Origin: an uncultured cyanobacterium
GTDB taxonomy: Bacteria; Cyanobacteriota; Cyanobacteriia; Pseudanabaenales; Pseudanabaenaceae
NCBI GenBank assembly: GCA_963703315.1
Contig: OY969811.1
Location: 3,040,001-3,104,000, forward strand
Direction: 5' to 3'
Length of the DNA: 64,000 nt
Positions within the stretch are counted from its first letter, which is position 1; each line of letters begins with the position of its first letter. Below are positions 34,225 to 39,154 of the stretch, piece after piece. The translations under genes and the position numbers were made by a program. The notes under the pieces are model-generated. The model saw only the letters and a program-made list of their open reading frames with translations, was not told the DNA's origin and did no database searches.

Positions 34225-34869
34225 CTAGCGATCGCTTAACTCTTGTTGTAGTTTAGGCAGACTCTCTAATTCAAATACAGTGATTTGTCCAGAATTAGCG
34301 CCCCCCCTGCCATTTTGAAGTAACTCCACCCAATAGCCATATTTTTTACCTTGACGGACTTCCCCTTGCAAAGCCCACAGAATTGCGGAAGCGTTCTTGC
34401 TGCGCGATCGCTGCACCATTGCCGCAGTGGGATAGGCATACACCCGTTTAGCAGTAGCATAATCGCGCATTACTTCAGGACCATAAATAGAACGTAATGA
34501 CTCTTCTAGACGCGATCGCGTGACACCATTGACGATATCCACAAATCTAATCTGCTCACTTCTAATCAAGTTAGCATCGCTACTCTTGATGGTAGCTATT
34601 CCTGGTAGCACGACACTGGCTTGAAATTGAAAGCGTCTTGATGGCGTATCACTTTTTTTTACCAACAGTCTTTCACCTGCTTCTGGACGTAAGGCAGGAT
34701 TGGTTCTAATCCAATCGATAACTTGATCGGGCGTTTGACCGGGTAAAGCGATCGCCGATGGGATCGTTTGCCATGCAGTCGGCACAGCAATGCTTAATAT
34801 TTGCGTCAAAAGCGTTGTAGCGATCGCCGTTTTCACATGGTTAATGTTTGCGCTCTTAAAGCAATTCAT
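34225..34869 (-). CDS. Exported hypothetical protein
   Basis: 214-aa ORF, signal-like N-terminus, ALPGQ. Confidence 0.7.
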   Translation of the reverse strand: MNCFKSANINHVKTAIATTLLTQILSIAVPTAWQTIPSAIALPGQTPDQVIDWIRTNPALRPEAGERLLVKKSDTPSRRFQFQASVVLPGIATIKSSDANLIRSEQIRFVDIVNGVTRSRLEESLRSIYGPEVMRDYATAKRVYAYPTAAMVQRSRSKNASAILWALQGEVRQGKKYGYWVELLQNGRGGANSGQITVFELESLPKLQQELSDR

Positions 34870-35068
34870 GAGATTCCTCTACACCAATTAAATCCTAGTA
34901 GACAAATTTAGCTGGCAAATAATGGCTGACAGAATATCATGGACTGGCGTAATTGCAATGACTTTTTCAGTCTTTTTCCGATATTTTTAGGACATCTGTC
35001 GCCGTAGTGTCATTTTTTATTCGTACCCATAGAATAGAACTGTAGATACTGTCTTGAGTACCAAAAAG

Positions 35069-36055
35069 TCAAGAGGGAATTTGAACAAAATTTGGGTCGA
35101 AAGAACGCTGAGACTTGAGAACGCCAAAGACCTGTCGTAACAGCTTGTGCATGACAGCCCCAATGACAGACATTTTGGACTTACCCTTAGCCGTAAGGCG
35201 AGCGCAGAAAGCAGCAATCGGCAAATTATAACGACGGGCAACAATCGCAGGCATAAACAAAGCTTTACGCAAACGCGAATTACCAATTTTAGATAAACGT
35301 GGCTTACCATGAATCGAAGAACCAGATGAGAACTCACGGGGAGTTAAACCCGCAAAAGCTGCCAGTTGATCAGCAGTATCAAAGGCAGAAATATCCCGAA
35401 TTTCCGCCAGTAATATAGTTGCGGTCAGTTCAGCAATACCAGGAATAGAAGTCAACAAATCCCGTTGAGATTTCAAATGAGGGTGTTGATCAAAGTGCTG
35501 ACGGATCAATTTTTTGGTCATCTCAATTTGCTCTTTGAGAAAATCAATGTGAGCATTAATTGCCTCAACCAAAATTGGATCAGCCGTAGCAAGACGATTC
35601 TGCTCTTGCTGCTGCATAGCAGTTAAGCTATCTAAACGATGCACCAATGCTTGTAGTTGCTCAATTTCTAATGCTGGTGGTGTCCAAAGAGCAGGTTTTA
35701 AGGCTGCACAAAATCTAGCAATGACTTTAGCATCAGCACGGTCAGTCTTTGTACGACTTAACTCACTCTTGCCAAAGGCTTTGGGACGGGATGGATTAAC
35801 AATACTTACTTTGTATCCTGCCTCTACTAAGAATCTAGCTAACCCATTGCCGTAAGTGCTGGTAGCTTCCATACAACTATGCAAGTTTGTCACATTTTGA
35901 AGGTTTAGCCATTCTTGTAATTCAGCAAATCCTTCAGGATTGTTGGCAAATACTTTGCTCTTGATTTTGGCGTTGCCTTGGATTAGAGCAACATCAAATT
36001 TGGCTTTGCTGATATCTATTCCTAAAACATCATATACTTCATTGTTATTGTTCAT
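35069..36055 (-). CDS. IS110 DEDD recombinase
   Basis: GIDISK, MEATS, KTDRAD, SIPGI, AFAGLTP..FSSGSS. Confidence 0.96.
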   Translation of the reverse strand: MNNNNEVYDVLGIDISKAKFDVALIQGNAKIKSKVFANNPEGFAELQEWLNLQNVTNLHSCMEATSTYGNGLARFLVEAGYKVSIVNPSRPKAFGKSELSRTKTDRADAKVIARFCAALKPALWTPPALEIEQLQALVHRLDSLTAMQQQEQNRLATADPILVEAINAHIDFLKEQIEMTKKLIRQHFDQHPHLKSQRDLLTSIPGIAELTATILLAEIRDISAFDTADQLAAFAGLTPREFSSGSSIHGKPRLSKIGNSRLRKALFMPAIVARRYNLPIAAFCARLTAKGKSKMSVIGAVMHKLLRQVFGVLKSQRSFDPNFVQIPS

Positions 36056-36091
36056 TGGGGGCAGTCCTCTTGCTAGATTTGTCCATCAAGC

Positions 36092-36300
36092 AATCAGTGG
36101 TATTGAACTATCCTTGTGAATGCAGGTTTACCCGTTGGGCGACCTCTGATACTGTCCAGTCTTTACTTGTTTCCACTGTTTAAGCAGAGACGACTCTATC
36201 TACAAAACGGGCTTGGTGTCCCTAGGGGCAGATCGAGTTTATCTCTGCTTTTGCTTTTTCGGATTGTAGTAAAGATTTTATCCTTTACTTTTCCTCCTAG
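36092..36300 (-). ncRNA. Predicted bridge RNA of IS110 copy L
   Basis: Mirror of copy R; guides at 36224-32, 36200-04, 36148-55, 36113-17; ends approximate. Confidence 0.8.
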
Positions 36301-36307
36301 ATACAAG

Positions 36308-36482
36308 GGGCAGAGCATTCCCGCAGGAATTTATACATTTTTAGATAATCCTCCTTTGGGAATGCTCTGCCCAAAACCTCGCAACGCAGGGAAAAATTGT
36401 CTGTAAAAGCATAAAGGGCAGAGCATTTGCGGAACGAGATTTGTGTGATGGGTTTTCAAATTGTGGCGCAAATGCTCTGCCC
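36308..36482. repeat. REP/REPIN doublet, occupied at both ends by IS110
   Basis: Homologous to reverse complement of 18552-18734; removing both IS restores GTAGGGGC...GCCCCTAC. Confidence 0.9.
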
Positions 36483-36489
36483 CTTGTAT

Positions 36490-36698
36490 CTAGGAGGAAA
36501 AGTAAAGGATAAAATCTTTACTACAATCCGAAAAAGCAAAAGCAGAGATAAACTCGATCTGCCCCTAGGGACACCAAGCCCGTTTTGTAGATAGAGTCGT
36601 CTCTGCTTAAACAGTGGAAACAAGTAAAGACTGGACAGTATCAGAGGTCGCCCAACGGGTAAACCTGCATTCACAAGGATAGTTCAATACCACTGATT
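36490..36698 (+). ncRNA. Predicted bridge RNA of IS110 copy R
   Basis: 5' hairpin, target loop (TCTGCCCCT 36558-66, TGTAG 36586-90), donor loop (ACAGTATC 36635-42, ACAAG 36673-77); ends approximate. Confidence 0.82.
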
Positions 36699-36735
36699 GC
36701 TTGATGGACAAATCTAGCAAGAGGACTGCCCCCCA

Positions 36736-37722
36736 ATGAACAATAACAATGAAGTATATGATGTTTTAGGAATAGATATCAGCAAAGCCAAATTTGATGT
36801 TGCTCTAATCCAAGGCAACGCCAAAATCAAGAGCAAAGTATTTGCCAACAATCCTGAAGGATTTGCTGAATTACAAGAATGGCTAAACCTTCAAAATGTG
36901 ACAAACTTGCATAGTTGTATGGAAGCTACCAGCACTTACGGCAATGGGTTAGCTAGATTCTTAGTAGAGGCAGGATACAAAGTAAGTATTGTTAATCCAT
37001 CCCGTCCCAAAGCCTTTGGCAAGAGTGAGTTAAGTCGTACAAAGACTGACCGTGCTGATGCTAAAGTCATTGCTAGATTTTGTGCAGCCTTAAAACCTGC
37101 TCTTTGGACACCACCAGCATTAGAAATTGAGCAACTACAAGCATTGGTGCATCGTTTAGATAGCTTAACTGCTATGCAGCAGCAAGAGCAGAATCGTCTT
37201 GCTACGGCTGATCCAATTTTGGTTGAGGCAATTAATGCTCACATTGATTTTCTCAAAGAGCAAATTGAGATGACCAAAAAATTGATCCGTCAGCACTTTG
37301 ATCAACACCCTCATTTGAAATCTCAACGGGATTTGTTGACTTCTATTCCTGGTATTGCTGAACTGACCGCAACTATATTACTGGCGGAAATTCGGGATAT
37401 TTCTGCCTTTGATACTGCTGATCAACTGGCAGCTTTTGCGGGTTTAACTCCCCGTGAGTTCTCATCTGGTTCTTCGATTCATGGTAAGCCACGTTTATCT
37501 AAAATTGGTAATTCGCGTTTGCGTAAAGCTTTGTTTATGCCTGCGATTGTTGCCCGTCGTTATAATTTGCCGATTGCTGCTTTCTGCGCTCGCCTTACGG
37601 CTAAGGGTAAGTCCAAAATGTCTGTCATTGGGGCTGTCATGCACAAGCTGTTACGACAGGTCTTTGGCGTTCTCAAGTCTCAGCGTTCTTTCGACCCAAA
37701 TTTTGTTCAAATTCCCTCTTGA
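36736..37722 (+). CDS. IS110 DEDD recombinase
   Basis: Protein identical to 35069-36055. Confidence 0.96.
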   Translation: MNNNNEVYDVLGIDISKAKFDVALIQGNAKIKSKVFANNPEGFAELQEWLNLQNVTNLHSCMEATSTYGNGLARFLVEAGYKVSIVNPSRPKAFGKSELSRTKTDRADAKVIARFCAALKPALWTPPALEIEQLQALVHRLDSLTAMQQQEQNRLATADPILVEAINAHIDFLKEQIEMTKKLIRQHFDQHPHLKSQRDLLTSIPGIAELTATILLAEIRDISAFDTADQLAAFAGLTPREFSSGSSIHGKPRLSKIGNSRLRKALFMPAIVARRYNLPIAAFCARLTAKGKSKMSVIGAVMHKLLRQVFGVLKSQRSFDPNFVQIPS

Positions 37723-37864
37723 CTTTTTGGTACTCAAGACAGTATCTACGTTTTTGTTGCGATAAATCACTGATGGTGCAATAGGTAAGCTTTCGTGAAA
37801 ATGCTTTGATAGTAAGGACTTGCAGCTTTATTCCAAAGAAATCAAAAAAAACATGCTCAAGGTA

Positions 37865-37893
37865 TTGACAAACCTTTTGTAAATCTCCATAAT
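37865..37893 (+). promoter_or_regulatory. Sigma70-type promoter of tRNA-Asp
   Basis: TTGACA-N17-CATAAT. Confidence 0.75.
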
Positions 37894-37982
37894 AAGGAGC
37901 GCTTAAATAAAGAAACGCAAAAACCGCGCTGCAAACCAGTTGGTAGCAAGCAATTCTTTAAATAAAGTTTAAGCAAAAATTT

Positions 37983-38056
37983 GGGTTCGTAGTTCAATTG
38001 GTTAGAGCACCGCCCTGTCACGGCGGAAGTTGCGGGTTCGAGCCCCGTCGAACCCG
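37983..38056 (+). tRNA. trnD: tRNA-Asp(GTC)
   Basis: GGGTTCG/CGAACCC acceptor stem, CCGCC-CT-GTC-AC-GGCGG anticodon arm, GTTCGAG T loop; CCA not encoded. Confidence 0.97.
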
Positions 38057-38083
38057 TTCTAGATAAGAATTTTAATAAGAATT

Positions 38084-39154
38084 TTATTTATCATCAGACC
38101 ATCCTAAAAGATTAGATAGCCAACCACGTTTTTGTGGCGGTGCAATAAGTGGCTTTTTTGTGGAATTTGGCTTAGGCAATTTTTTCGCAGTTGCGCTTTG
38201 AGCAGAATTAGGATTGCTCAGATCCTTGATGTGTTTTAATGCCAATGGCTCCTGCGGATTAATCTGAAGCGATCGCATCAGGCTAACTTTTGCCATTTGG
38301 GGCTGATCAATATTTTTGTAAACCACACCGAGCATGGCGTGACATTTGCTACTGTTTTTATCGAGTTGCAAAATCTCGCGCAAATCCTTGAGGGCAGCTT
38401 TCCAATCACCCTGACTCATGTAGATTTCACAAATTTTGAGGCGGTCAGCGATCGCGCTCGGATCTCTTGGCTCAATTCTGGTCTGGATTATCGTTTCATC
38501 GGAAGATGGCGAATTAGGAGATTTGTGACTTGATGAAGAGGAAGTAGGATAAGCGTAACTAGATTTTGCAAGTGATTGGGGATAGGTGGGCATCACCAGT
38601 GGTTTCTGCACCATCGGTTCCAGTACAGGTGGCATATCGGGATCGCCATATTGGTAGCCTTCCTTATAAAGGATATACACCAAATTTAGTTCACTGATCT
38701 GGGCTGTATATTCGAGAATATTATCTAGAGATTGATATTGTAATTTTGCGATCGCGGAAACTGAACGCTCGTAATATCCATCATTAGGAGCTAGCATAAA
38801 CTCACAGGCTAAAGCCGAATGAATTTGAACATTACGCGATTTTTGCATCAGCCGCTTAGCTAGTAACTTAAAGATCCCTTGATAAGCCTTGCGTTCTTCC
38901 TCTTTCATGAGAATGTCGTAGGCAGGATTGACCAGCTTTGCCAAATACTGAGTTGCTACAGCTTTTTCTTTAGCCGAAAAGCCATATACGTCAGGGTGCA
39001 AAATACGAGCAATACTCAGATAGACATGACGAATGTAAATGGGGCTGGTGATAATTGGCAAGCCCAAGGCAGCGTAGTAGTCATGATTGAACTGACTAAT
39101 GCCTCGATTGATGCGGATAAGCTGGAGATTTTGCTCCTTGGGCAGTTGATTCAT
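38084..39154 (-). CDS. J-domain and TPR protein
   Basis: DYYAALG...LHPD...VNPAY; C-terminal TPR. Confidence 0.85.
   Translation of the reverse strand: MNQLPKEQNLQLIRINRGISQFNHDYYAALGLPIITSPIYIRHVYLSIARILHPDVYGFSAKEKAVATQYLAKLVNPAYDILMKEEERKAYQGIFKLLAKRLMQKSRNVQIHSALACEFMLAPNDGYYERSVSAIAKLQYQSLDNILEYTAQISELNLVYILYKEGYQYGDPDMPPVLEPMVQKPLVMPTYPQSLAKSSYAYPTSSSSSHKSPNSPSSDETIIQTRIEPRDPSAIADRLKICEIYMSQGDWKAALKDLREILQLDKNSSKCHAMLGVVYKNIDQPQMAKVSLMRSLQINPQEPLALKHIKDLSNPNSAQSATAKKLPKPNSTKKPLIAPPQKRGWLSNLLGWSDDK

What the first reader, a model, noticed from the sequence alone, without database searches (positions are those of the whole stretch)
36483..36735. Fully readable bridge RNA: an IS621-like donor loop paired with a target loop programmed for a cyanobacterial REP
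Seen: the reconstructed empty target is TCTGCCC-CT-AC and the circle junction (donor) is ACAGTAT-CT-TGTAT. The 251-nt leader contains, in order, TCTGCCCCT (36558-66, 9/9 to left target plus core), TGTAG (36586-90, revcomp CTACA, right target), ACAGTATC (36635-42, left donor) and ACAAG (36673-77, revcomp CTTGT, right donor). These lie in internal loops closed by AGCAGAGA/TCTCTGCT and CAGTGG/CCACTG, after a 5' hairpin AGTAAAGGAT/ATCTTTACT. Established: this is the IS110 bridge-RNA architecture, and as I recall the donor equals that of E. coli IS621. Inference: a natural cyanobacterial ortholog with a re-programmed target guide, a candidate programmable recombinase for cyanobacteria.
Basis: partly seen in the sequence, partly recalled or inferred. 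Interest (0 to 1): 0.92.

Follow-up and report, generated by a model that had tools for sequence, protein, structure and literature searches.

The report
Bridge RNA of a cyanobacterial IS621-like element
The stretch is the guide ("bridge") RNA gene of a small jumping gene related to E. coli IS621, aimed at a repeated hairpin of its cyanobacterial host; it is a clear new example of a mechanism already described, not a new kind of system.

Summary
Observation confirmed; interpretation supported. Window 36485-37747 is a 1263-bp IS110-family element, one of 7 near-identical copies in the genome. A second copy lies head-to-head at 35044-36305. Its recombinase matches IS621 and ISCro4 over its full length, and all five catalytic residues align.

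The 251-nt left end has the IS621 bridge-RNA layout: a 5' hairpin, a target loop and a donor loop. The donor (ACAGTAT-CT-TGTAT) is identical to the published wild-type IS621 donor.

Three independent tests support a bridge RNA:
- A covariance model built only from 34 distant orthologs hits this leader end to end (75.7 bits, E 5e-20).
- The loop-closing helices covary.
- Across orthologs the target guide tracks each element's own left flank (21 of 29 at 6/7 or better, against 2% for mismatched pairs).

The target is a genuine REP. It is the outer end of hairpin doublets that also flank the genome's single RAYT gene. Five empty exact targets remain.

Not shown: the RNA itself, circle formation, recombination and reprogrammability. 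Verdict: new member of a known kind, moderate interest.

The parts
36308..36482 (.). REP doublet between the two IS copies. REP-a hairpin is 36308-36372 and REP-b hairpin is 36416-36482. Both outer ends carry the target.
   Evidence: The same doublet type flanks the RAYT gene.
36476..36484 (+). Left target TCTGCCC (36476-82) plus the left copy of the core CT (36483-84).
   Evidence: Five empty sites TCTGCCCCTAC elsewhere in the genome, all in REP arms.
36485..37747 (+). IS110-family element, 1263 bp: TGTAT...ACAGTAT plus core CT.
   Evidence: 7 copies. They differ by one C-run length and one SNP.
36485..36735 (+). Left end / leader, 251 nt, which encodes the bridge RNA. The structured part is about 36501-36697.
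36501..36522 (+). 5' hairpin, AGTAAAG / CTTTACT.
36541..36607 (+). Target-binding stem-loop. Outer stem 36541-48/36600-07, second stem 36552-55/36594-97, inner hairpin 36568-70/36579-81.
36558..36566 (+). Left target guide TCTGCCC plus core CT. [quoted passage not shown]
   Evidence: 9/9 match to the flank. Covaries with the flank in orthologs.
36583..36592 (+). Right target guide, TTT-TGTAG. TGTAG is the reverse complement of CTACA, and its U can pair with A or G. It is followed by the handshake dinucleotide AT (36591-92).
   Evidence: The same GTAGAT occurs in IS621.
36612..36695 (+). Donor-binding stem-loop. Outer stem 36612-17/36690-95, lower stem 36629-33/36680-84, upper stem 36645-48/36663-66.
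36635..36643 (+). Left donor guide ACAGTATCA. It matches the right end ACAGTAT+C and is identical to the IS621 string.
36669..36679 (+). Right donor guide AT-(TC)-ACAAG, pairing discontiguously with CTTGTAT, then the handshake dinucleotide GA.
   Evidence: The discontiguous 9-on-7 pattern is described in PMC11208160.
36736..37722 (+). Recombinase gene, 328 aa: DEDD RuvC-like domain plus Tnp domain. The catalytic residues are D14, E63, D105, D108 and S244.
37719..37747 (+). Right end. It holds the -35-like TTGACT (37719-24, overlapping the stop codon), the left donor ACAGTAT (37739-45) and the core CT (37746-47). TATCT plus the first T of the left end would form a -10 only on the circle.
   Evidence: No promoter-like site lies upstream of the leader in the integrated state.
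37748..37749 (+). Right target AC.
   Evidence: 7 of 7 copies.
35044..36305 (-). Second copy of the element (1262 bp), head-to-head with the first. Its bridge-RNA region is 36093-36247 (-).

Best explanation
Window 36485-36735 encodes the bridge RNA of an active or recently active IS621-like (IS110-group) insertion sequence of a cyanobacterium.

Inferred cycle:
1. The element leaves as a circle in which the right end (...ACAGTAT-CT) abuts the left end (TGTAT...).
2. The junction completes a sigma-70-type promoter: -35 TTGACT in the right end, an 18-nt spacer, and a -10 TATCT|T across the junction. This promoter drives the roughly 200-nt leader RNA.
3. The RNA folds into a 5' hairpin and two stem-loops, each with an internal loop.
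4. The donor loop reads the circle junction: ACAGTATC pairs with the bottom strand and AU..ACAAG with the top strand.
5. The target loop reads the outer end of a host REP hairpin: UCUGCCCCU pairs with the bottom strand and UGUAG with the top strand of CTAC[A/G].
6. A tetramer of the DEDD/serine recombinase exchanges strands at the CT core, leaving the element flanked by CT.

Shown here: element anatomy, copy number, guide-to-site matches, conserved and covarying architecture, an intact enzyme, and the REP nature of the target. Inferred from IS621 biochemistry: circle, promoter use, RNA production, RNA-protein complex and strand exchange.
For: 1. Enzyme. Pfam PF01548 and PF02371 both match. NCBIfam NF033542 'IS110 family RNA-guided transposase' scores 244.7 bits against a cut-off of 140. 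The protein aligns end to end with the solved IS621 (E 7e-73) and ISCro4 (E 3.5e-76) recombinases. D14, E63, D105, D108 and S244 align with IS621 D11, E60, D102, D105 and S241 (residues named in PMC11208158; the numbering offset was checked on the IS621 ORF start). These columns are invariant in 9 of 9 cyanobacterial relatives.

2. Layout. The leader is collinear with the 177-nt IS621 RNA of Durrant et al. Supplementary Tables 1-2. It has the same GTAG-AT after the right target guide, the same ACAGTATCA, the same AT-NN-NCAAG-GN, and the same donor 14/14.

3. Independent model. A covariance model built from 34 orthologs, excluding this element and its 7 closest relatives, hits 36543-36697 over model positions 1-161 at 75.7 bits, E 4.7e-20. 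There are only 2 hits in the window, one per IS copy, and exactly 7 in the genome.

4. Structure. On 42 leaders, 33 proposed pairs are 76.3% paired against 65.0% in shuffles (0 of 500 reach it) and 32-49% when slid. The four loop-closing helices are 83-99% paired, with changes on both sides.

5. Guide-to-site covariation.
- Left target guide against own left flank: mean 5.55 of 7; 21 of 29 unique pairs at 6/7 or better; non-self pairs mean 2.19 with 2.1% at 6/7 or better; 0 of 10,000 permutations reach the observed mean.
- Right target guide against own right flank: 3.26 of 5 against 1.94; 0 of 10,000.
- Left donor guide equals the right end in 36 of 41 loci, including 6 with the same non-standard base on both sides.
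- The first donor-loop handshake base is complementary to target position 7 in 21 of 28 unique pairs, against 44% for non-self pairs.

6. Activity. There are 7 copies differing only by one C-run length and one SNP. Five are in exact targets. One is in TCTACCC, where guide G faces bottom-strand T. One is in TATTCCC.

7. Promoter logic. In 5 of 7 orthologs scanned, a -35 TTGAC[A/T] in the right end pairs with a -10 TAT[C/G][T/C]T in the left end at 17-18 nt spacing (L024 instead shows the junction-spanning arrangement described next; L070 gave no candidate). In this element the -10 spans the junction. No promoter-like site precedes the leader in the integrated state.
Against: - No direct evidence for the RNA. 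The only RNA run that held the sequence is kept as contigs. Its contigs cover 36479-36787 but come from a relative's copy in another flank, and could be read-through or DNA.
- No circle-junction joint was seen in the 4 runs laid. Contigs would rarely show one.
- In the single-sequence fold, AUCUGC of the left target guide pairs with GUAGAU. Across orthologs that pairing is 59.8% against 51.2% in shuffles, but it is no better than some slid controls in covariation, and two of its six pairs are unpaired in 29 and 35 of 42 sequences.
- The junction -10 (TATCTT) is a 4-of-6 match.
- The second handshake base of the donor loop (A) does not match target position 6 (C).
- Only 5 nt of the right target guide match the flanks, so natural specificity is about 11-12 bp.
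- Rfam 15 gave no hit on the leader at E up to 1.
Confidence: 0.9

Rival explanations
1. The leader is a genuine bridge-RNA gene by descent, but the element is now inert, so the guides are a fossil record of past insertions rather than a working system.
For: There is no RNA or circle evidence. The junction promoter is weak: the -10 is TATCTT and an 8-bp expansion of the right end moved the -35 relative to orthologs. The C-run between the ribosome-binding site and the ATG varies between copies.
Against: The 7 copies are almost identical, with intact 328-aa frames and all catalytic residues. One DNA metagenome contig joins 36482 to 37746, which is an unoccupied allele of this very site, though its shorter side is only 25 nt. 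Five exact empty targets remain.
Confidence: 0.07
2. The structured leader is only a cis-regulatory 5' UTR or small RNA that controls transposase expression, as was once proposed for ISPpu9, with no guide role.
For: It lies directly upstream of the ORF, and a further hairpin (36698-36723) sits next to the ribosome-binding site. Single-sequence folding partly buries the target guide.
Against: A regulatory UTR does not predict that loop bases track the DNA outside the element in ortholog after ortholog. It also does not predict that a donor-end change appears in the loop too, as seen in 6 cases.
Confidence: 0.02
3. The four short matches arise by chance in an AT-rich leader.
For: ACAAG and TGTAG are only 5-mers, and ACAAG occurs twice in the leader.
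Against: The 9-mer is 4 observed against 0.46 expected in the window. Order, spacing and strandedness equal those of IS621. An independent covariance model hits at E 4.7e-20.
Confidence: 0.01

Closest known systems
IS621 of Escherichia coli and its 177-nt bridge RNA (Durrant et al. 2024, PMC11208160; Hiraizumi et al. 2024, PMC11208158)
   Same: - Same enzyme family, with a full-length alignment.
- RNA encoded in the left end, with a 5' hairpin, a target loop and a donor loop.
- CT core and identical 14-bp donor ACAGTATCTTGTAT.
- Identical left donor guide string, the same AU handshake in the target loop, and right target AC.
- The target is the outer end of a REP hairpin followed by CTAC.
   Different: - The left target guide is TCTGCCC rather than ATCGGGC.
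- The right donor guide uses ACAAG (a Watson-Crick A:T pair) where wild-type IS621 has GCAAG.
- An 18-nt linker separates the 5' hairpin from the target stem-loop.
- 40 nt with an extra hairpin lie between the RNA and the ATG; in IS621 the RNA abuts the ATG.
- The -35 lies 8 bp further from the end, so the -10 falls on the junction itself.
- No DNA-level similarity: blastn against 5,426 E. coli genomes found nothing.
- The host is a cyanobacterium.
ISCro4 / IS622 bridge recombinases (PDB 9t56; bioRxiv 10.1101/2025.05.14.653916, search listing and abstract only)
   Same: This is the best solved-structure match to the recombinase (E 3.5e-76), and it belongs to the same clade as IS621.
   Different: I did not compare its RNA. 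ISCro4 has been engineered for human cells; nothing is known about activity of the element described here.
ISPpu10 of Pseudomonas putida (bioRxiv 10.64898/2026.03.19.712850, abstract only)
   Same: An IS110 element whose insertions all fall in copies of one intergenic repeat that forms a stem-loop 5' of the paired target. Here the left target is itself the end of a 65-nt REP hairpin.
   Different: Whether the hairpin adds specificity here is untested. One of the 7 copies sits outside any REP.
IS1111-group seekRNA elements (as described in PMC11208160, Extended Data Fig. 10 legend)
   Same: Same enzyme superfamily and RNA-guided logic.
   Different: The IS1111 group has short left ends and long right ends. 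This element has a 251-nt left end and a 25-nt right end, so it belongs to the IS110 group.

Membership tests
IS110-group bridge RNA (IS621 type) | Encoded in a long left end directly upstream of the recombinase gene, with a short right end | tested here: met
   The left end is 251 nt (36485-36735) and the right end is 25 nt after the stop codon.
IS110-group bridge RNA (IS621 type) | [quoted passage not shown] | tested here: met
   Overall 76.3% paired against 65.0% in shuffles (0 of 500). Loop-closing helices are 83-99% paired with compensatory changes. Outer helices are only 56-64% on the MAFFT alignment. A model built from distant orthologs hits at 75.7 bits.
IS110-group bridge RNA (IS621 type) | The 5' side of the first loop equals the top strand of left target plus core; the 3' side is complementary to core plus right target | tested here: met
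   9/9 and 5/5, with U opposite A or G. Ortholog covariation gave 0 of 10,000 permutations for both sides.
IS110-group bridge RNA (IS621 type) | The second loop reads the element's own joined ends: left donor guide 8-9 nt, right donor guide discontiguous 9-on-7 | tested here: met
   ACAGTATC matches 8 of 9. AU-UC-ACAAG reads CTTGTAT. The guide equals the end in 36 of 41 orthologs, with 6 compensated variants.
IS110-group bridge RNA (IS621 type) | Handshake dinucleotides 3' of each right guide, complementary to positions 6-7 of the other substrate | tested here: met
   The target-loop AU pairs with donor AT at 2 of 2 positions. The donor-loop GA pairs with target CC at 1 of 2, as in wild-type IS621, whose G166/U167 faces target G6/C7. 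The first base is complementary in 21 of 28 orthologs.
IS110-group bridge RNA (IS621 type) | A promoter reconstituted across the circle junction | tested here: inconclusive
   The sequence fits and no promoter-like site precedes the integrated leader. No transcript start was observed.
IS110-group bridge RNA (IS621 type) | The RNA is made, binds the recombinase and directs donor-by-target recombination | not testable with these tools
   Only contigs of one RNA run were available, and they are uninformative.
IS110 family recombinase | N-terminal DEDD RuvC-like domain, C-terminal Tnp domain with a catalytic serine | tested here: met
   PF01548 E 8.5e-27, PF02371 E 1.4e-26. NF033542 scores above its cut-off. 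The five catalytic residues align.
REP / REPIN-RAYT system (the target) | A short repeated extragenic palindrome occurring as inverted doublets | tested here: met
   The arm AATGCTCTGCCC occurs 32 times against 0.34 expected. There are 11 hairpins with two perfect arms, and REP-a plus REP-b doublets.
REP / REPIN-RAYT system (the target) | A cognate REP-associated tyrosine transposase gene flanked by the repeats | tested here: met
   There is a single Y1_Tnp hit in the genome. NF047646 scores 85.3 bits against a cut-off of 80. A doublet lies on each side of the gene.

The most novel reading that the evidence does not exclude
This is a currently active, self-contained cyanobacterial bridge recombinase that uses the host's RAYT-dispersed REP doublets as landing pads. 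It and its 92-97%-identical relatives would then form a natural series in which only the target guide has been rewritten to suit each host's own repeat. Guide positions differ at 40-60%, against 7-13% for the rest of the leader. That would give a ready scaffold for programmable insertion in cyanobacteria.

Because the donor code is the same from E. coli IS621 to these elements, co-resident elements could also guide each other's insertion in trans. This is hinted at by L026, whose flank matches the guide of its neighbour L034 and not its own.
Probability: 0.45. Interest if true: 0.5.

Novelty: new member of a known kind. Interest (0 to 1): 0.3.

Why it matters
The finding extends the best-studied bridge-RNA clade (IS621/ISCro4) to a cyanobacterial host with an unusually legible example. 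All four guides, both handshake dinucleotides, the empty targets and the REP/RAYT system that supplies the targets can be read from one genome.

On the practical side, a native enzyme-RNA pair with the same donor code as IS621 is a reasonable starting point for programmable insertion in cyanobacteria. I found no report of bridge recombinase use in cyanobacteria.

On the conceptual side it adds nothing new to the mechanism. Large catalogues of IS110 bridge RNAs already exist (PMC11208160; bioRxiv 10.64898/2026.10.21.760802, passages read).

Tried and rejected
- Rfam 15 scan of 34500-38500 at E up to 1: no family on the leader. The only hits were a tRNA and chance matches, including the REP-a hairpin hitting a microRNA model below its cut-off.
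- blastn 'distant' of the whole element against the E. coli genome collection: no match. IS621 therefore had to be compared through the paper's supplement.
- RNAalifold on 42 leaders recovered only 16 pairs, and three of them lie between the invariant donor guides with no covariation. I replaced this with a manual structure.
- Sequencing runs: all four laid runs are contigs.
  - No circle joint was found.
  - The RNA-run contigs over the leader belong to a relative and prove no transcript.
  - Depth figures were not used.
- Earlier findings of this scan: none near this place.
- Text search of Durrant et al. supplements for four strings of this leader and of the Microcoleus-type leader: none found. 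Files 3 and 4 are cut as stored and file 2 is unreadable, so absence from their data set is not shown.
- I first took 13 of 47 aligned leaders to lack a left boundary. That was wrong for most of them.
  - Their left end is longer than I had assumed (338-564 nt).
  - The boundary AACCCGCCC-CT|TGTATCTTA was found in 8 of the 9 that I re-examined. L041 has an N there.
  - L036, L038 and L049 are contigs too short to show it, and L033 is disrupted.
  - In one search overall, 12 of 13 loci showed the boundary.
- Literature searches for IS110 with Pseudanabaena (0 papers), 'bridge recombinase' with cyanobacteri* (1 plant review) and IS110 with 'bridge RNA' and cyanobacteria (2 papers, listings only) gave no prior description.

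Full report
**What is there.** The finding's interval, 36483-36735, is the left core copy (CT) plus the whole left end of an insertion sequence that runs from 36485 (TGTAT...) to 37747 (...ACAGTATCT). The genome holds 7 copies. They differ only in the length of one C-run just upstream of the ATG (1263 or 1262 bp) and in one SNP in one copy.

A second copy lies in the window on the other strand (35044-36305), head-to-head with the first. The two are separated by 175 bp (36308-36482) that consist of two hairpin repeats.

The junctions read ...TCTGCCC|CT|TGTAT and ACAGTAT|CT|AC. The right target AC is present in 7 of 7 copies and is followed by A in 4 and G in 3. The left target is TCTGCCC in 5 copies, TCTACCC in 1 and TATTCCC in 1.

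**The enzyme.** The 328-aa ORF (36736-37722) carries PF01548 (DEDD_Tnp_IS110) and PF02371. It passes the NCBIfam equivalog 'IS110 family RNA-guided transposase' at 244.7 bits against a cut-off of 140. It aligns over residues 10-321 with the solved IS621 recombinase (E 7e-73) and over 9-321 with ISCro4 (E 3.5e-76).

The residues named as catalytic in IS621 are D11, E60, D102, D105 and S241 (PMC11208158, passage). They align with D14, E63, D105, D108 and S244 here. Those columns are invariant in an alignment with eight cyanobacterial relatives.

**Comparison with IS621.** Durrant et al. [quoted passage not shown] The right donor guide pairs discontiguously, nine RNA bases on seven DNA bases. A promoter is rebuilt on the circle (passages).

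Their Supplementary Tables 1-2 give the IS621 left end, the 177-nt RNA, its target specificity ATCGGGCCTAC and its donor specificity ACAGTATCTTGTAT. The donor of the present element, read from its two ends, is the same 14 letters.

The leader is collinear with the IS621 RNA:

| Feature | This element | IS621 |
|---|---|---|
| 3' side of target loop | ...GTAG-AT | ...GTAG-AT |
| Donor loop opens with | GG-ACAGTATC-A | GG-ACAGTATC-A |
| Right donor guide | AT-TC-ACAAG-GA | AT-TT-GCAAG-GT |
| 5'-side target guide | TCTGCCC-CT | ATCGGGC-CT |

At the DNA level the two elements are otherwise unrelated. blastn against the E. coli collection found nothing.

**Is the RNA family real here?** Rfam gave no hit on the leader, so I tested it with orthologs. 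Protein searches in 401 genomes of the phylum and in the species-representative collection gave loci at 36-97% identity. They came from cyanobacteria (records titled Pseudanabaena, Phormidium, Chamaesiphon, Microcoleus, Tychonema, Leptolyngbya and others), Acidobacteriota, Dehalococcoidia and others.

I aligned forty-seven non-redundant leaders. On 42 of them (I dropped L033, L043, L068, L078 and L087 as disrupted or very divergent) a manual structure of 33 pairs gave these results:
- It is 76.3% paired against 65.0% in shuffles (0 of 500 reach it) and 32-49% with partners slid.
- The covariation score is 0.409 against 0.230.
- The helices that close the loops are well kept and show changes on both sides: second target stem 82.7%, target inner hairpin 99.2%, donor lower stem 92.0%, donor upper stem 95.8%.
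I attribute that partly to alignment of length-variable regions, but I did not prove this.

A covariance model was then built from 34 orthologs that exclude this element and its seven closest relatives. It hits 36543-36697 across all 161 model positions at 75.7 bits, E 4.7e-20. The only other hit in the window is the second IS copy, and there are exactly 7 hits in the genome.

**Do the loops read DNA?** This is the defining test.
- **Left target guide.** Among the 34 of 47 leaders where the boundary CT|TGT... lay inside the aligned stretch, there are 29 unique guide/flank pairs. They agree at a mean of 5.55 of 7 positions; 21 of 29 are at 6 or better and 11 of 29 are at 7. Guides paired with other elements' flanks agree at 2.19, with 2.1% at 6 or better. 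None of 10,000 permutations reached the observed mean. Several of the misses are one-base register errors of the alignment (L055, L086). One (L026) is a real mismatch, discussed below.
- **The other 13 leaders.** These turned out to have a longer left end. In 8 of the 9 I could re-examine, the boundary is AACCCGCCC-CT|TGTATCTTA, and their guide is CCCGCCC-CT.
- **Right target guide.** It agrees with its own right flank at 3.26 of 5 against 1.94 for non-self pairs (0 of 10,000 permutations). In this element's clade only the first 2-3 positions (AC, then A or G) match.
- **Left donor guide.** It equals the right end in 36 of 41 loci. Six of these carry the same non-standard base in both places (ACGGTAT four times, ATGGTAT, ACAGCAT). 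Five are mismatched.
- **Donor-loop handshake.** Its first base is complementary to target position 7 in 21 of 28 unique pairs, against 44% for non-self pairs.

In the minimum-energy fold of the single sequence, AUCUGC (36557-62) pairs with GUAGAU (36587-92), so part of the target guide sits in a stem. In the centroid structure, by contrast, the donor guides lie in an open internal loop.

Across orthologs this intraloop pairing is 59.8% paired against 51.2% in shuffles. Its covariation score (0.265) is close to that of the structure slid by -2 (0.203). Two of its six pairs are unpaired in 35 of 42 and 29 of 41 sequences. IS621 has the same AUC...GAU potential (read by eye). I read this as incidental complementarity, not a conserved stem. 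It stays on the list of evidence against.

**The target is a genuine REP.** The arm AATGCTCTGCCC occurs 32 times in the genome against 0.34 expected. Five arms are followed by the IS and five by CTAC. These five are the only exact 11-mers TCTGCCCCTAC in the genome.

The hairpins are 65-67 nt and come as REP-a plus REP-b doublets whose two outer ends read ...CCC-CTAC outward. This explains the head-to-head IS pair in the window and a second such pair at genome position 2.715 Mb.

The genome has one Y1 transposase gene. It passes the NCBIfam 'REP-associated tyrosine transposase' model at 85.3 bits against a cut-off of 80, and it has a doublet on each side. An IS copy abuts the upstream one.

Many further arms differ at one guide position (TTTGCCC, TATGCCC, TCTACCC). 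There are 83 one-mismatch sites in all, 7 of which are the element's own guide-coding DNA.

IS621 likewise inserts at ...ATCAGGC-CT-AC at the end of E. coli REPs. The Microcoleus-type relatives sit at ...CCCGCCC-CT-AC at the end of another palindrome.

**Promoter and expression.** In five of the seven orthologs scanned, a -35 TTGAC[A/T] lies 21-22 nt from the right end, and a -10 TAT[C/G][T/C]T starts at the third base of the left end, giving 17-18 nt spacing only on the circle (L024 shares this element's arrangement, described next; L070 gave no candidate).

In this element, and in its 97% relative L024, the right end is 8 bp longer. The -35 (TTGACT, 37719-24, overlapping the stop codon) then pairs at 18 nt with TATCT|T, whose last T is the first base of the left end. 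In the integrated state that position is A.

The consensus scan finds no promoter-like site upstream of the integrated leader and no terminator. This fits the circle-dependent logic, but no transcript start was observed.

Of the four runs laid, all are contigs:
- An RNA run has contigs over 36479-36787, but with another left flank, so they come from a relative's copy.
- One DNA metagenome contig joins 36482 to 37746. It skips exactly 1263 bp with a 2-base ambiguity, which is what an unoccupied allele looks like, though its shorter side is only 25 nt.
- No circle joint was seen.

**Retargeting in nature.** Relatives with 97, 94 and 92% protein identity (L024, L025, L026) differ from this leader at 4, 6 and 6 of the 10 variable guide positions, but at only 17, 29 and 23 of 231 other positions. 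For L024 and L025 the new guide matches the new flank at 6/7 and 7/7.

**Novelty.** The mechanism, the architecture, REP targeting and guide turnover are all published for IS621 and its family. Durrant et al. predicted thousands of orthologous RNAs, and their tree table lists a cyanobacterial protein in the IS621/ISCro4 cluster. A 2026 preprint clustered 181,180 IS110-adjacent sequences.

I found no paper describing a cyanobacterial bridge RNA or its use. Supplements that might list this very element were cut as stored or not readable.

The finding is therefore a well-supported new member of a known kind.

Noticed in passing
window 35044-36305 (-) with 36485-37747 (+); also G000 2714873-2717577: Two head-to-head IS pairs occur in the genome. 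Each occupies both outer ends of one REP-a plus REP-b doublet (175 and 172 bp between the copies), so 4 of the 7 copies sit in such pairs.
   Followed up: partly
L104:1285-1815 (G000 348753-349283), with repeats at L104:1110-1310 and 1852-2052: This is the genome's single REP-associated tyrosine transposase gene. It is flanked on both sides by the same REP doublets that the IS targets, and an IS copy abuts the upstream doublet.
   Followed up: yes
L026 (= L002) and L034, same assembly: L026's target guide (GAAACCC-CT) matches its own left flank (ACCGCGA-CT) at only 1 of 7 positions. The guide of a different, co-resident element (L034, ACCGCGA-CT) matches that flank at 7 of 7. Both elements share the same donor ends, so L026 may have been inserted under the other element's RNA. 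Only one L026-type copy is assembled.
   Followed up: partly
L035, L040, L042, L043, L054, L058, L071 and others, 270-560 nt upstream of the ORF: In the Microcoleus/Tychonema-type relatives the left end is stretched to 338-564 nt. The extra length is an array of roughly 20-nt tandem repeats (units like CGATCGTACCGACAATCAGG), lying between the left terminus and the bridge-RNA region.
   Followed up: no
L061, L072-L074, L086, L089, L092, L095, L098 (Acidobacteriota records): In these loci the left junction core reads TT and the target guide also has TT, while the right junction core reads CT. This is what a TT target core and a CT donor core would give if the strands are cut between the two core bases.
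   Followed up: no
window 36729-36734 and the six other copies; G000 2716385: The C-run between the ribosome-binding site and the ATG is C6 in 2 copies and C5 in 5. One copy has G to A at the base just 5' of the spacer A that precedes the left target guide.
   Followed up: partly
window 37717-37739: An inverted repeat TCTTGA...TCAAGA spans the stop codon and the -35-like hexamer just before the left donor. Orthologs keep a palindrome there (for example CTTGAC-AG-GTCAAG), so it may be a conserved right-end hairpin.
   Followed up: no
window 37865-38056: A tRNA gene (37983-38056, 66.2 bits) with a strong promoter-like site (TTGACA-17-CATAAT, 37865-37893) lies 236 bp downstream of the IS right end.
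   Followed up: no
whole genome G000: GCGATCGC (the HIP1 palindrome typical of cyanobacteria; the name is recalled) occurs 16,462 times in 4.57 Mb.
   Followed up: no
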